A stretch of 64,000 nucleotides of DNA from Escherichia coli. Lineage in GTDB: Bacteria; Pseudomonadota; Gammaproteobacteria; Enterobacterales; Enterobacteriaceae. Where the stretch lies: the NCBI RefSeq assembly GCF_030013205.1, contig NZ_CP122648.1; one strand, written 5' to 3'. Below, one piece after another: positions 31,201 through 34,200 of the stretch. Made by a program: the position numbers. Within the stretch, counting starts at the first letter, position 1. The number at the start of each line of letters is the position of its first letter.

Positions 31201-34200
31201 CTGTCGGCACCTGCTTCTCATCCTTCGGGATAAACCAGGCAGGCAGTTCAAAACCAATACGCCCGCGAATAAAAGCAATATGGTCCGCATCTTCCGGCCA
31301 CCACACTTCGCTGGTGGCAGCTTTGATCAGGAAAACATAGCGCCCGCCCTTATCACGCATGGCACTGGCATGTTTCATGATGTAACGCATGCCGGTGATG
31401 TATTGCCCCTCATGCTGACTGGCGCGGCTGTATGGGGGATTACCAAAGGCAGCACCTTTAAGCTCCGCAAGACGTTCTGACCAGTCATGCGCCAGCGCGT
31501 TGTCTTCCGCCGTGTAATACGCGGCACATTTGGCGTTATCACCGTCAGTGAACAGATCCAGAACAAACGGACCAAACAAGGTGTTAATTCCCCAGAAAAT
31601 GTTGTCCGGCGTGCGCCACTGATCGCCCACTTCCTTCAGTTCATGGGCTGGTTTGTTCCGCAGTTCTACCAGCGCCTGGCAATATTTATTACTCATTAAG
31701 CCCCCACGTAAAAAGCATCCGCAATGTCTCCGGAAGTACAGCCCGGATGGGCTTCAATGAATTTCTGAACGTCATTTAACAGACTCATGATCACCCCCTG
31801 AATCCTGCCGGGATCTGGCTGTAGTCCACGTTGTCGTAACTGGCTTTGAAGTACGGGTCTTCACGTTTTTCTGTGTGCGTGCTGACGGACGGCGATAAGC
31901 GCAGGGAAAGCTCATCCCATTTTTCCCGCAACTTCGACGGGCTGAGCACGTTACGGCACCAGAACGGATCGCGGCTGACGCGGCTGTACATCTCGCAGAT
32001 TTGTTTGTGAGTACGACCATCCTGCACACACATCAGGCGAATTTCGTTTGCCCATGCTGTCCAGTTCGGTTCTTTGGGACGAACCACCTCGCCGTCACAT
32101 TCGGCGGCCTGCTCGTACAGGGCGATGATTTTTTTCCAGAGCCACTGTGCGCAGGTCAAATCATCCTGCGTTCCCCACTGGCGCTTTTTAGGGCTGAATA
32201 CAACCGCATCAGGATGGCGAGTTAAAAACTCCTGTTCAGCCGTTTGCGTGTCCGGTTGCGAAGCGTCCGGACGAGAAGAGGTTTTATTCTCTGTAGTAAT
32301 CTCTGTTGTATTCTCTGTAAGATCATTGGGCCATTTTGACCCGATGACAGCGTGTCGTTTTGAACCAATGGATCGTGTCATTTTGCGCCCATCCATCAGG
32401 TCACTTTGACCCGATGGAGAAGTGCATTTTGACCTGATGGATTCGTTCACTTTGACCTCTTCTAAAAGCTCACTTTCATAGTTGATCGTGTAGAAGTTGG
32501 TCATGTCACGCTTCGATTTATTGAGTTGCTCGCGACGCAAAACCCCAAGTGATTTCAGGCTTGCAAATGTGCGTTTCAGAGTGGACTCTGACCAGAACGG
32601 AAACTGCTCCAGCCACTGTTCTGTCGTGTTATAAACCCAGCGAATTCCGCCATGCTCAGTGCCTGAATTCGTTTCATTCAGCCAGTAATGAAGCTGCTGC
32701 AACACAATTGCCTCATTCAGACCAATACGGCATGCAAGATCACGATTTATCACAATGGGCTGGGATGTCATTAACAGGCTCATGACCGACCTCTATTTCC
32801 CTGAATTTACGACGAAACTGTTCGAGCGGACTGAAGCATTCATGTTCATAGCCTTCACGGAGGTAGATAACCCGTTGTGTTTCCGGCTCCCAACGAATGA
32901 CTCTGACGGGCACTCCGTAGTGATCTTTGAACCAGCGGTTAACTTGTCGCAAAGGACTGTCTCCTTCTGCCGGTTGAAATCACCCACAGCCCACTCTGCA
33001 AAGCTGTGGGTTACAATTTCCCTGTCACCTGGTACATTCACTGCATAGCAATACTCCACCTTCGCTTTTCCACCCGGTACAGGAAGCGCAATCAGTTGCG
33101 AGCGACGGTAGTGTGTTGTTAAACTGTTCATGCGTTAGTTTCTCCACAACCAGAAGCAATCGACGCCACGACGCCCGGAGCTGCACACTCGCGGGCGTTA
33201 CTCTTTTCCGGCGCACAAAAAACACGAAATAACAGTGTTAAATGCTCCTGCCACTTCGCCATTACTTGGTAGCTGTTCTCTTCGATTTGCTCACGCTCAG
33301 CCTGGTCAATAACTCCATCAGCAGTTGCCTTGCGTAAGTACTGGGAATGCTTGCCAATCCATTCTATTGACTCCATCAGCCGCTGATTAATGTCACCATT
33401 GTCAATGTCATCAATGACCACCAGCGGCACAAACACCCCATTACTACGACGGGCTATTGCATCTGTTACATGCCTGGTACCACTGGCATCCTGTAAAACC
33501 ATGGCCCACTCAAGTGGAAAAATTTGATCCCCACCGCTACGCAGTCTGTTATGCAATTGATCTTTTGCTGGGGTGATATCATCAGATTTATACAAACCAA
33601 GAATTTCTGCTGCTTCCTCATAGCCATGAGGTAAATCAGCAATCGTTCTTCGTATTGCTGCCACCAGCCATGCTGGTTGTTTATCAACTTTCCATTCAGG
33701 TTCTTTACCCACGGTTAATTCCTCATTTCTGTGGTGTTTTTATGCCGCAGCACTGTTAGTCTTTTGATATAAAGACACGTCAACTTTCAGTTTCCCGTTA
33801 GTAATTTTTTCTAACTGGTACGCTCGGCCTTCAGGAATAATCTCAGGCCACTCTGAAACAGACGGATGCTTAATACCTAGGGCTTCGGCGGTTTTACAAA
33901 CTCCGCCGAAATAATTAATCACGTCGGATTTCCGCATTTCTGTCTCCCGTTAAATTACGTCAAGCAGGAATGTAGGATATCCAACATGCCAATGTCAAGA
34001 ATCCTACATTGGCATGTGGTAGGATTGCCTACATGATGAACATGAGTGATCGTATTCGCCAAAGGCGAAAAGAACTGAACCTGACACAACAAGCACTGGC
34101 TGATTTGACTGGTGTGAACCGTGTCACGGTTACTGGATGGGAAAAGGACGACTACCAACCAAATGGAGCCAACCTTCAAGCCCTAGCCAACGCACTTAAA

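What the first reader, a model, noticed from the sequence alone, without database searches (positions are those of the whole stretch)
32325..32465. Iteron array inside the O-like replication gene
At least four directly repeated 16 bp units (ca(c/t)tttgacc(c/t)gatgg) occur in tandem within the coding sequence of the O-like gene, as in lambda where ori lies inside O. This marks the probable replication origin and suggests the cryptic element could still replicate if induced.
Basis: seen in the sequence. Interest (0 to 1): 0.4.

Follow-up and report, generated by a model that had tools for sequence, protein, structure and literature searches.

The report
Prophage replication origin inside initiator gene
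The repeats are real and are almost certainly the replication origin of a defective lambda-like prophage, lying inside its own initiator gene as in phage lambda; next to them is a short 12-base repeat shared by the initiator genes of many unrelated phages, which I could not find described.

Summary
Observation confirmed. Seven repeat slots sit in a strict 23/24-bp register at 32331-32486. Four are strong, three are degenerate, and there is one inverted copy. The consensus on the gene strand is CCATCRGGTCAAARTGA.

The slots lie in the middle of an intact 330-aa O-like initiator gene (31791-32783, minus strand; PHROG 391, E 1e-101). A predicted disordered linker between an N-terminal winged-helix domain and a lambda-O-like C-terminal domain is encoded there.

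Just downstream in the gene direction lie a GATC and three 12-bp units, ACAGAGAnTAC (32284-32318). This is the GC minimum of the gene.

In homologues from E. coli, Citrobacter, Salmonella and Klebsiella, about 90% of synonymous codons are identical across this segment, against about 50% in the flanks (p 1e-5 to 1e-8). SfII/SfIV phages keep the C-terminal half but swap the N-domain together with a different repeat set at the same position.

The prophage lies in dusA and lacks its head genes. It has no P, DnaC or DnaB gene. This "O-only" class has not been studied experimentally.

Extra: iterons phased at 23 bp followed by CAGAGAnTAC repeats recur in diverse phage initiator genes. The hosts span Firmicutes and Proteobacteria.

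The parts
31791..32783 (-). O-like replication initiator gene, 330 aa, intact. The N-terminal winged-helix domain (aa ~10-110) is encoded at 32454-32783, the disordered linker (aa 111-180) at 32244-32453, and the lambda-O-like C-terminal domain (aa 181-297) at 31893-32243.
   Evidence: ORF. PHROG 391 'replication initiation O-like', E 1e-101. aa 183-294 are 38% identical to the C-terminus of lambda O. AlphaFold2 domains and linker pLDDT <50. 98.5% identical over full length to the mEp460_4F5 protein.
32331..32347 (-). Iteron 1 (strong), the unit nearest the 12-mer array; gene strand TCATCGGGTCAAAATGG.
32355..32371 (-). Iteron 2 (strong, two core mismatches); gene strand CCATTGGTTCAAAACGA.
32378..32394 (-). 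Iteron slot 3, degenerate in this lineage (GGATGGGCGCAAAATGA). Relatives have GGAAGAGGTCAAAATGA here.
32393..32405 (+). Inverted copy of the iteron 3' half (CCATCAGGTCACT on the + strand). With iteron 4 it forms the near-palindrome CCATCAGGTCA-CTT-TGACCCGATGG. This is specific to the window/mEp460_4F5 lineage.
   Evidence: Inverted repeat I2; absent from the other lineages.
32401..32417 (-). Iteron 4 (strong, consensus); gene strand CCATCGGGTCAAAGTGA.
32424..32440 (-). Iteron 5 (strong, consensus); gene strand CCATCAGGTCAAAATGC.
32447..32463 (-). Iteron slot 6; only the core is kept (AGAAGAGGTCAAAGTGA).
32470..32486 (-). Iteron slot 7; weak, in phase (ATCAACTATGAAAGTGA).
32284..32318 (-). Three tandem 12-bp units on the gene strand: ACAGAGAATAC (32308-32318), ACAGAGATTAC (32296-32306) and ACAGAGAATAA (32284-32294). 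This is the A+T-rich, purine-skewed GC minimum of the gene and encodes TENTTEITTENK. Proposed DNA unwinding or loading element.
   Evidence: Family D5; TRF period 12; GC 0.325 and AT skew -0.56. Conserved at the DNA level in distant homologues, including in another reading frame.
32319..32324 (-). GATCTT on the gene strand (Dam site GATC at 32321-32324), at the junction of the iterons and the 12-mers. Kept in many enterobacterial and Pseudomonas relatives.
33969..33998 (-). pR-like promoter (TTGACA-18-TACATT) upstream of cro. Its transcript would run through cro, the cII-like ymfL gene and small ORFs, then the O-like gene and the origin.
   Evidence: Consensus scan, (10/12 match; pattern match only); gene order.
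34009..34686 (+). cI-like repressor (HTH_3 + Peptidase_S24), intact. Would make the replication operon SOS-inducible.

Best explanation
The array is the cis-acting replication origin of a lambdoid prophage, embedded in the linker-coding middle of its own initiator gene.

Proposed mechanism:
1. After SOS cleavage of the cI-like repressor, transcription from the pR-like promoter produces the O-like protein and passes through the origin. (Inferred.)
2. The N-terminal winged-helix domain binds the 4-7 phased CCATCRGGTCAAARTGA sites spaced 23 bp apart, about two helical turns. Each site carries an A-tract. Together they form an O-some-like nucleoprotein. (Inferred by analogy with lambda O and with RepA_N plasmid initiators.)
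3. Strand opening occurs in the adjacent ACAGAGAnTAC x3 block, the least stable and most conserved 35 bp. (Inferred.)
4. The lambda-O-like C-terminal domain recruits the host helicase. No phage P, DnaC or DnaB gene is present, so the loading route is unknown; host DnaC is the obvious candidate.

What is shown: the repeats, their phase, their position in an intact initiator gene, DNA-level purifying selection on exactly this segment, and co-replacement of N-domain plus repeats in relatives.

What is not shown: binding, unwinding, and replication.
For: Anatomy:
- Seven slots in a 23/24-bp register, four of them strong.
- They lie in an O-like initiator gene at the same relative position as lambda's annotated iterons.
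- They are followed by the GC minimum of the gene.

DNA-level selection:
- Identical codons among synonymous pairs number 43/47 in gene positions 297-500, against 82/161 in the flanks, versus phage HannyBb (p 1.6e-7). The result is similar versus Citrobacter, Salmonella and Klebsiella homologues (p 4e-6 to 8e-6).
- The fourth strong unit is read in a different frame from the other three, and one copy is inverted.

Module behaviour:
- SfII/SfIV share the C-terminal half at 97% but carry an unrelated N-domain and a different repeat (GACCCGTCAAAATCTGA) at the same gene position. Homology resumes right after the A+T-rich block.

Protein:
- AlphaFold2 gives two confident domains. The linker of aa 111-170 has pLDDT <50 and is exactly where the origin is encoded.
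- The N-domain fold best matches staphylococcal plasmid RepA initiator NTDs (4pql, 4pt7, 5kbj) and other winged-helix proteins. Those plasmids also carry their ori in the linker-coding centre of rep (PMC5703833).

Generality:
- 82 of 95 distinct viral contexts carrying the 12-mer pair have >=3 copies of some 10-mer in the 170 nt 5' of it, against 1 of 95 in a control segment. Spacing is 23 bp (158 times), 24 bp (37) or 22 bp (7).

Intactness:
- The array is 100% identical to that of phage mEp460_4F5, and closely related arrays occur in the isolated phages HannyBb and PhiR42_1.
Against: - There is no experimental evidence for this family. PMC12315714 states that none of the O-only lambdoid phages has been studied and that their replication is not understood.
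- No helicase or loader gene is present.
- No DnaA box lies near the array.
- The iterons lack the clear internal dyad of lambda's.
- Within the array, cores are not significantly more conserved than spacers (24% vs 41% variable columns, p 0.12).
- Three of the four strong units share a reading frame (S-I-G/R-S-K), so some protein-level contribution cannot be excluded.
- High synonymous conservation could in part reflect recent recombination of this segment. That is unlikely to explain the same pattern across four genera.
Confidence: 0.8

Rival explanations
1. The origin is a relic. The sequence is the former ori of this phage type, but in this defective prophage it no longer fires. Possible reasons are a missing helper function or helicase loader, or damage elsewhere in the element.
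For: - The prophage has lost its head and tail-shaft genes; terminase and tape-measure genes are truncated in the 99.998%-identical ETEC4079 record.
- The yfdN/PerC-like gene between the O-like gene and dam is deleted relative to mEp460_4F5 and SfII.
- yfdP is frameshifted.
- No loader gene is present.
Against: - The O ORF is full length and 98.5% identical to that of phage mEp460_4F5, with an identical iteron and 12-mer segment.
- Repressor, cro, cII-like gene and pR-like promoter are intact.
- O-only modules are normal for this phage group (34 of 314 lambdoids), so absence of P is not decay.
- Defective lambdoid prophages of O157 Sakai do replicate on induction (PMC2669165).
Confidence: 0.15
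2. The repeats are only a protein-level feature: a low-complexity, repetitive linker (SIGSK..., TENTTEITTE) with no DNA function.
For: - Three of the four strong units are in one frame and give S-I-(G/R)-S-K.
- The TE.TTE.TT peptide is kept in distant homologues.
- The region is predicted to be disordered.
Against: - The period of 23 is not a multiple of 3. One strong unit is read as P-S-G-Q-S-D, and one copy is inverted.
- Synonymous sites are the most conserved in the gene.
- In 12-mer units outside the two that the search pattern fixed, Glu is GAG 88 times and GAA 0 times; Thr is ACA 86 times and ACG 5 times.
- The same 10-mer, CAGAGACTAC, is read as RDY in P0170 and as ETT elsewhere. In Bacillus phage BMBtpLA3 it is read both as PETT and as QRI.
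- Copies occur outside any full-length gene in plasmid pBSG3 and in L091.
Confidence: 0.04
3. The repeats are operator or activator sites for a transcription regulator, such as the YmfL/CII-like protein or the repressor. They would control an internal or antisense promoter in the way lambda CII acts at promoters inside genes, and would not be an origin.
For: - A CII-like gene lies immediately upstream in the operon.
- Lambdoid phages do have regulatory sites inside early genes (established knowledge).
Against: - No promoter-like site lies within or next to the array on either strand.
- The repeat set tracks the initiator's N-domain, not the cII or cI type. HannyBb and EC31 have YdaT-type cII and DicA/DicC-type immunity genes but the same iterons. 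Staphylococcus and Bacillus phage homologues with other regulators keep GGTCAAAATG-type repeats.
- Four to seven phased copies at 23 bp are typical of iterons, not of CII sites (TTGC-N6-TTGC).
Confidence: 0.03
4. For the 12-mer block only: it is a conserved module-boundary sequence that promotes recombinational shuffling of initiator N- and C-domains. It would not be an unwinding or loading element.
For: - It sits at the boundary between the N-domain-plus-iteron module and highly variable C-terminal domains.
- The SfII/window homology junction lies about 10 bp after it.
Against: - Conservation extends from Firmicutes to Proteobacteria phages that cannot exchange DNA often.
- The SfII-type module lacks it yet recombines at the same place.
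- It always lies on the same side and strand relative to the iterons, at a fixed short distance. That fits a mechanical role in initiation.
Confidence: 0.08

Closest known systems
Phage lambda ori (four iterons plus A+T-rich tract inside gene O) and the six-iteron origins of Stx phages 933W and P27
   Same: - The origin lies in the middle of the initiator gene, within the pR operon.
- There are 4-7 direct repeats spaced 20-24 bp apart.
- An A+T-rich, purine-skewed tract follows on the downstream side.
- The C-terminal domain is homologous to that of lambda O (38% identity).
- The N-domain and iterons exchange as one specificity module.
(PMC7466680)
   Different: - The N-terminal domain is not Phage_rep_O; there is no Pfam hit.
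- The iteron sequence is unrelated and lacks lambda's clear dyad.
- No P gene follows.
- The A+T-rich tract is replaced by a sequence-specific 12-bp tandem repeat that lambda lacks.
RepA_N theta-replicating plasmids of Gram-positive bacteria (pSK41 prototype)
   Same: - Three-part initiator: a winged-helix NTD binds repeats located centrally within its own gene, the central part is a dispensable linker encoded by the ori, and the CTD is host-specific (PMC5703833).
- The best structural matches of the modelled N-domain are RepA NTDs 4pql, 4pt7 and 5kbj.
   Different: - There is no sequence match to PF06970.
- The fold match is weak (E 0.03-0.2).
- The CTD here is lambda-O-like, not the DnaG-binding CTD of pSK41.
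- The context is a phage rather than a plasmid.
'O-only' lambdoid replication modules (phage LLS and 34 of 314 lambdoid phages; Genome Res 2025, PMC12315714)
   Same: A single O homologue with no helicase or loader gene. The paper names mEp460_4F5, whose O gene is 98.3% identical to the window's, as LLS's closest relative for cI and cro.
   Different: The passages of that paper retrieved by my term searches do not mention an origin, and the word 'iteron' does not occur in it. It states that replication of this type is not understood.
DUE 13-mers of iteron plasmids and oriC, which initiators bind sequence-specifically as ssDNA (RK2 TrfA, F RepE; PMC4081077)
   Same: Short tandem repeats directly flank the iterons on one side, in the least stable segment. 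This is a candidate analogue for the ACAGAGAnTAC block (abstract of PMC4081077, seen).
   Different: The sequence and period differ (12 bp against 13 bp). No binding data exist. Here the block is conserved across initiators whose iterons differ completely.

Membership tests
lambda-type origin inside an O gene | Several direct repeats (iterons) in the middle of the initiator's coding sequence, roughly two helical turns apart | tested here: met
   Seven slots at 23/24 bp, gene positions 298-453 of 993; lambda's are at 349-433 of 900.
lambda-type origin inside an O gene | A+T-rich tract immediately downstream of the iterons in the direction of O transcription | tested here: met
   GC 0.325 at 32280-32319, the minimum across the gene, with strong strand skew.
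lambda-type origin inside an O gene | Initiator N-terminal domain of the Phage_rep_O family | tested here: not met
   No Pfam or NCBIfam hit for the 330-aa protein. The tblastn match to lambda O covers only aa 183-294.
lambda-type origin inside an O gene | C-terminal domain homologous to the lambda O C-terminal (P-binding) domain | tested here: met
   38% identity, E 2e-17, to lambda 39196-39495.
lambda-type origin inside an O gene | Adjacent P-type helicase-loader gene (or DnaC/DnaB-type partner) | tested here: not met
   The genes downstream of the O-like gene are dam, a LexA-DNA-binding-domain gene, rusA, kilA-N and DUF968. The same holds in mEp460_4F5, SfII and the Citrobacter and Salmonella loci.
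lambda-type origin inside an O gene | Initiator binds the iterons and the fragment supports replication | not testable with these tools
   Requires EMSA or footprinting and a mini-replicon or marker-frequency assay.
RepA_N-type in-gene origin | RepA_N domain (PF06970) at the N-terminus | tested here: not met
   No Pfam hit. There is only weak fold similarity to 4pql, 4pt7 and 5kbj (E 0.03-0.2, target TM ~0.54).
RepA_N-type in-gene origin | The origin repeats are encoded in a central linker between a DNA-binding NTD and a separate CTD | tested here: met
   AlphaFold2 gives folded regions at aa 10-110 and 180-297 and a linker at 111-170 with pLDDT <50. The iterons are encoded at aa 100-151 and the 12-mers at aa 155-167.
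O-only lambdoid replication module | A lambdoid early-right operon with one O homologue and no helicase or loader gene | tested here: met
   Gene content; class defined in PMC12315714.
iteron-type origin (general) | Repeat sequence co-varies with the initiator's DNA-binding domain across relatives | tested here: met
   - The same N-domain family keeps GGTCAAAATG-type repeats from E. coli to Staphylococcus and Bacillus phages.
- The SfII-type N-domain has a different repeat.
- The 47 upstream-sequence clusters, which include several other N-domain types, carry many different repeat sequences.

The most novel reading that the evidence does not exclude
The ACAGAGAnTAC tandem block (core CAGAGAnTAC; 2-4 units; usually 12-bp spacing) next to the iterons is not just 'A+T-rich DNA'. 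It is a sequence-specific, strand-specific origin element. It is shared by a very large superfamily of phage and plasmid initiator genes across Firmicutes and Proteobacteria, whatever their iteron sequence, C-terminal domain or helicase-loading partner. It would be the site where the initiator, or a universally conserved host replication protein, engages single-stranded DNA to open the origin or load the helicase.

I found no description of it in the searchable literature.
Probability: 0.35. Interest if true: 0.7.

Novelty: new variant of a known kind. Interest (0 to 1): 0.5.

Why it matters

It matters somewhat more than that for three reasons.

1. Prevalence. At least 80% of a 601-bp query spanning the N-domain coding region, the iterons and the 12-mer block (32200-32800) is present in 1763 of 5426 complete E. 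coli genomes. It also occurs in some Stx-converting phages.

2. An unstudied class. The module belongs to the O-only class, whose replication a 2025 paper calls not understood. Precise coordinates for the iterons and the putative unwinding block make that question directly testable.

3. A separable experiment. The adjoining CAGAGAnTAC repeat is conserved at the DNA level across phages of distant hosts. Its Thr and Glu codons can be recoded without changing the protein. The DNA role can therefore be separated cleanly from the protein role.

Tried and rejected
- DnaA boxes (TTWTNCACA): none within 7 kb of the array, and the window total is below chance. A DnaA-assisted origin is not indicated.
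- Rfam, permissive threshold, 31000-34200: no hit. No known RNA overlaps the array.
- Pfam and NCBIfam on the O-like protein: no hit. PDB sequence search: no hit at E <=1. Only PHROGs names the protein.
- Promoter and terminator scan: nothing within the array. Two terminator-like hairpins on the + strand at 32110-32184 are antisense to the gene, and their number is only slightly above the shuffled expectation. Not pursued.
- CAYTTTGNNCC count in the window: 3 against 1.8 expected, uninformative.
- A PWM built from the four strong units is circular for those units. It was used only to show that the inverted copy ranks 7th of ~128,000 positions and that no other good site exists in the prophage.
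- Core against spacer variability inside the array: the trend is in the expected direction but not significant.
A DNA-pattern scan replaced it.
- Literature searches for the 11-mer and 10-mer strings and for the TETTTE-type peptides returned only unrelated primer and word matches. A search on 'replisome organizer' origins found nothing about the 12-mer. Subscription-only literature was not searchable.
- I considered that the 12-mer could be a cluster of DnaG priming sites (CTG on the complementary strand), or could match the 12-nt footprint of a DnaB hexamer. Neither is testable here, and I advance neither.
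Full report
**1. The observation**

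The region 32325-32465 does contain the repeats described.

Exact or near matches to ca(c/t)tttgacc(c/t)gatgg:

| Position | Mismatches |
|---|---|
| 32402-32417 | 0 |
| 32425-32440 | 0 |
| 32332-32347 | 1 |
| 32356-32371 | 3 |

The units are not head-to-tail 16-mers. They sit in a strict register, with the TTTG core starting at 32335, 32359, 32382, 32405, 32428, 32451 and 32474 (spacing 24, 23, 23, 23, 23, 23). Each unit is a ~17-bp block, TCAYTTTGACCYGATGG on the + strand, followed by a 6-7 bp spacer.

- That gives seven slots. Four are strong. Three keep only part of the unit: 32378-32394, 32447-32463 and 32470-32486.
- An inverted copy at 32393-32405 makes an 11-bp near-palindrome with the unit at 32405-32417 (I2).
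- Tandem Repeats Finder reports period 23.
- The 13-mer core at <=2 mismatches occurs five times within 106 bp here and twice in the remaining ~64 kb.
- The same k-mer counting method recovers the four annotated iterons of lambda as its second-ranked family (four copies, tied with the first), which serves as a positive control.

**2. The setting**

The repeats lie on the antisense strand of an intact 330-aa ORF (31791-32783, minus strand).

- The ORF matches PHROG 391 'replication initiation O-like' end to end (E 1e-101).
- It has no Pfam, NCBIfam or PDB-sequence match.
- Residues 183-294 are 38% identical to the C-terminal domain of lambda O. The N-terminal ~140 residues resemble 'replication initiation' or 'DnaD-like' proteins of Klebsiella, Pseudomonas, Staphylococcus, Bacillus and Listeria phages.

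The gene order on the minus strand is typical of a lambdoid early-right operon:
- a cI-like repressor, divergently transcribed (34009-34686)
- a pR-like promoter (33998-33969)
- cro (33740-33937)
- a YmfL/CII-like gene (33128-33712)
- small ORFs
- the O-like gene
- dam
- a gene with a LexA DNA-binding domain
- rusA
- kilA-N
- DUF968

The prophage itself:
- Window 8999-56000 is 99.998% identical to E. coli ETEC4079.
- That record's annotation shows a ~32-kb prophage inserted in dusA. Its terminase and tape-measure genes are truncated and its head genes are missing. It is defective for particle formation but has an intact immunity and replication region.
- There is no P, DnaC-like or DnaB-like gene. 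The same is true of its relatives mEp460_4F5, SfII, SfIV and the Citrobacter and Salmonella prophages.
- A 2025 paper describes exactly this class: 34 of 314 lambdoid phages have only an O homologue, none has been studied, and their replication is 'not yet understood' (PMC12315714).

**3. Is the repeat array a DNA element or a by-product of the protein?**

Five results point to a DNA element.

- **(a) Reading frame.** The period, 23, is not a multiple of 3. Three strong units are read as S-I-(G/R)-S-K and the fourth as P-S-G-Q-S-D. One copy is inverted.
- **(b) Synonymous sites.** Codon alignments were made with homologues of 71-79% amino-acid identity from the isolated phage HannyBb, two E. 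coli prophages and the Citrobacter and Salmonella prophages, plus a Klebsiella phage at 49% identity. Among codon pairs for the same amino acid, the share using the identical codon is 83-93% in gene positions 297-500. In the flanking N- and C-domain coding regions it is 37-60% (Fisher p from 8e-6 to 3e-8). Third-position identity rises from 25-60% to 75-95% over exactly this stretch.
- **(c) Tolerated positions.** Many of the substitutions between lineages fall on positions that also vary among units within one array (R at positions 6 and 14).
- **(d) Module swap.** SfII and SfIV share the C-terminal half of the gene at 97% DNA identity. They have an unrelated N-terminal domain and a different repeat (GACCCGTCAAAATCTGA-type) at the same gene position. 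Homology with the window resumes about 10 bp after the A+T-rich block, at window ~32293. This is the classical lambdoid pattern of an N-domain-plus-iterons specificity module.
- **(e) Protein structure.** AlphaFold2 predicts two confident domains, aa 10-110 and aa 180-297. The first has a winged-helix-like H-H-E-E-H-H-E-E order. The linker, aa 111-170, has pLDDT <50. The iterons are encoded at aa 100-151 and the downstream 12-mers at aa 155-167, where the protein imposes least constraint. The best structural matches of the model are the N-terminal domains of staphylococcal plasmid RepA initiators (4pql, 4pt7, 5kbj) and generic winged-helix regulators. All are weak (E 0.03-0.2).

One test did not reach significance. 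Within the array, core positions vary less than spacers (24% vs 41% of columns), with p 0.12.

**4. The block next to the iterons**

Immediately downstream in the gene direction lie GATCTT (GATC at 32321-32324) and three 12-bp units: ACAGAGAATAC, ACAGAGATTAC and ACAGAGAATAA (32284-32318). This is the GC minimum of the gene (0.325), with strong strand skew. It occupies the position of lambda's A+T-rich tract.

It is the most conserved part of the whole gene among relatives: 5 variable columns of 42. The encoded peptide, TE.TTE.TT, persists in homologues of only 30-40% identity, while the iteron-coded linker before it is hypervariable.

The conservation is at the DNA level:
- Klebsiella phage ZX1 and Pseudomonas stutzeri phage 8P have GATCTTCATACAGAGACTAC(T/A)ACAGAGACTAC.
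These gave 99 distinct contexts.
- In units other than the two the pattern fixed, Glu is GAG 88 times and GAA 0 times. Thr is ACA 86 times, ACG 5 times and ACT/ACC 0 times. Spacing is 12 bp in 200 cases and 11 bp in 5.
- Six distant homologues chosen by protein similarity alone (31-40% identity, locus GC 0.35-0.56) all carry exact CAGAGACTAC units 3' of GGTCAAAATG-type phased repeats. In one of them the units are read in another frame (TRDYSRDYS instead of PETTTETT).
- In Bacillus phage BMBtpLA3 the units stand 11 and 10 bp apart and are read as PETT, QRI and PETT. Staphylococcus phage fPfSau02 has (C/G)AGGTCAAAATGRC x3 followed by CCATAGACTAC ACAGAGACTAA.

The architecture is general:
- In 82 of 95 distinct contexts, the 170 nt 5' of the 12-mers contain >=3 copies of some 10-mer, against 1 of 95 in a control segment. 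Spacing is 23 bp (158 times), 24 bp (37) or 22 bp (7). The repeat sequence and the N-terminal domain differ widely between clusters.
- In GenBank phages, a 41-nt query made of GATCTT plus the three 12-mer units (last unit idealised to ...TAC) matches records from Acinetobacter (44), Staphylococcus (20), Listeria (20), Bacillus (19) and Klebsiella (15), plus Stx phages and others. In the stronger matches the feature under the match is nearly always a 'replication protein O', 'DnaD' or 'replication initiation' CDS; some of the weakest matches (E 2-8) lie under unrelated features.
- It also occurs on plasmids. Copies outside any full-length gene occur on the 8.4-kb Bacillus plasmid pBSG3: three CCTACAGGGAAA repeats at 23 bp, then three 12-mers. 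Another lies between a tail gene and the integrase in L091.
- Lambda, SfII-type O genes and three more distant relatives (32-37% N-domain identity: the high-GC Stenotrophomonas and Burkholderia phages and a Vibrio phage of 40% GC) lack it.
- I found no mention of these strings in the searchable literature. That does not exclude older or subscription papers.

**5. How it most likely works**

Shown:
- a phased iteron array inside an intact initiator gene
- DNA-level selection on the array and on the adjacent 12-mer block
- co-variation of the repeats with the N-terminal domain
- a disordered linker at the protein level

Inferred by analogy with lambda O and ori (PMC7466680) and with RepA_N plasmids (PMC5703833):
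1. The N-terminal winged-helix domain binds the iterons and builds an O-some-like complex.
2. The strands open in the 12-mer block.
3. The lambda-O-like C-terminal domain brings in the host helicase.
4. Transcription from pR through the origin may help, as it does in lambda.

Unknown: how DnaB is loaded without a phage-encoded loader, and what recognises the 12-mers. Candidates are the initiator binding one strand, as plasmid Rep proteins do at DUE 13-mers (PMC4081077 abstract), or a conserved host protein.

No DnaA box is nearby, and no known RNA family overlaps the region.

**6. Comparison and novelty**

It works like oriλ, but it is not a member of lambda's O/ori family in the strict sense:
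- The N-domain family differs.
- The iterons are unrelated and lack a clear dyad.
- There is no P gene.
- A sequence-specific repeat replaces the generic A+T-rich tract.

It resembles RepA_N plasmid origins in architecture, but it fails the sequence test for that family.

The module type is an unstudied variant: O-only, a different N-domain, and a conserved 12-mer block. It is also very common. At least 80% of a 601-bp query spanning the N-domain coding region and the origin (32200-32800) is present in 1763 of 5426 complete E. coli genomes.

**7. Verdict**

- Observation: confirmed.
- Interpretation (probable origin): supported at about 0.8.
- 'Could still replicate if induced': plausible but untested.
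- The adjoining CAGAGAnTAC block is the part worth following up.

Noticed in passing
window 32284-32318; also L007 (gene positions 439-480), L008 (460-500), L140, L141, L148-L153, L020-L139: A tandem ACAGAGAnTAC repeat (core CAGAGAnTAC; usually 12-bp spacing) lies directly 3' of iterons phased at 23 bp in initiator genes of phages from Firmicutes and Proteobacteria. It is conserved at synonymous sites and is sometimes read in another frame. I found no description of it in the searchable literature.
   Followed up: yes
L146 (plasmid pBSG3, NC_014104.1) 742-835; L091 1486-1560 (minus strand); L147 1440-1535: 'Orphan' copies of the iteron-plus-12-mer architecture lie outside any full-length initiator gene. 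One is upstream of the rep gene of a small Bacillus plasmid, one is between a tail gene and the integrase of a prophage-like contig, and one is on a 4.6-kb Acinetobacter plasmid. They could be stand-alone origins, remnants, or hitch-hiking ori copies.
   Followed up: partly
window 32740-33131 (minus strand): Two overlapping ORFs lie on the same strand in different frames: 32793-33131 (112 aa, PHROG 1170, E 1e-69) and 32740-32952 (70 aa, DUF4222 / PHROG 1343, E 5e-34). They share 160 nt. The second also overlaps the start of the O-like gene by 44 nt. Different annotators call one or the other.
   Followed up: no
window 31697-31794: Relative to mEp460_4F5, SfII and E. coli AR_0085, the ~490-bp yfdN/PerC-like gene between the O-like gene and dam is deleted here. 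About 396 bp are missing. RefSeq annotates an 84-bp remnant pseudogene.
   Followed up: partly
window ~9200-41800, with the junction near 21224-21289: The prophage lies in dusA, with the integrase next to dusA at one end and a dusA fragment at the other. It has a large internal deletion that joins a truncated tape-measure gene to a truncated terminase gene, removing the portal, capsid and tail-shaft genes. This comes from the annotation of the 99.998%-identical ETEC4079 record.
   Followed up: partly
window 32393-32417: The near-palindrome CCATCAGGTCA-CTT-TGACCCGATGG occurs only in the window/mEp460_4F5 lineage. All other lineages have a normal direct unit (GGAAGAGGTCAAAATGA) in slot 3. It could be a dimer-type site, as in iteron plasmids, or a neutral change.
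   Followed up: partly
window ~23000-28100 (L014 14060-19105): Cargo-like genes lie in the prophage late region, according to the ETEC4079 annotation: an LPS core heptose(II)-phosphate phosphatase, an AraC-family regulator, a DUF6731 protein and a tRNA-Gly. A perfect DnaA box, TTATCCACA, at 25127-25135 is probably chance.
   Followed up: no
L151 1257-1563; L153 1178-1500; L144 1977-2685; L140 2300-2784: Distant relatives with the same N-domain and origin architecture are followed by different partners: a lambda-P-like gene, IstB/DnaC-like loaders, or (after one small ORF in the Staphylococcus phage) a replicative helicase. The window's module has none. The origin module therefore combines freely with different helicase-loading solutions.
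   Followed up: no
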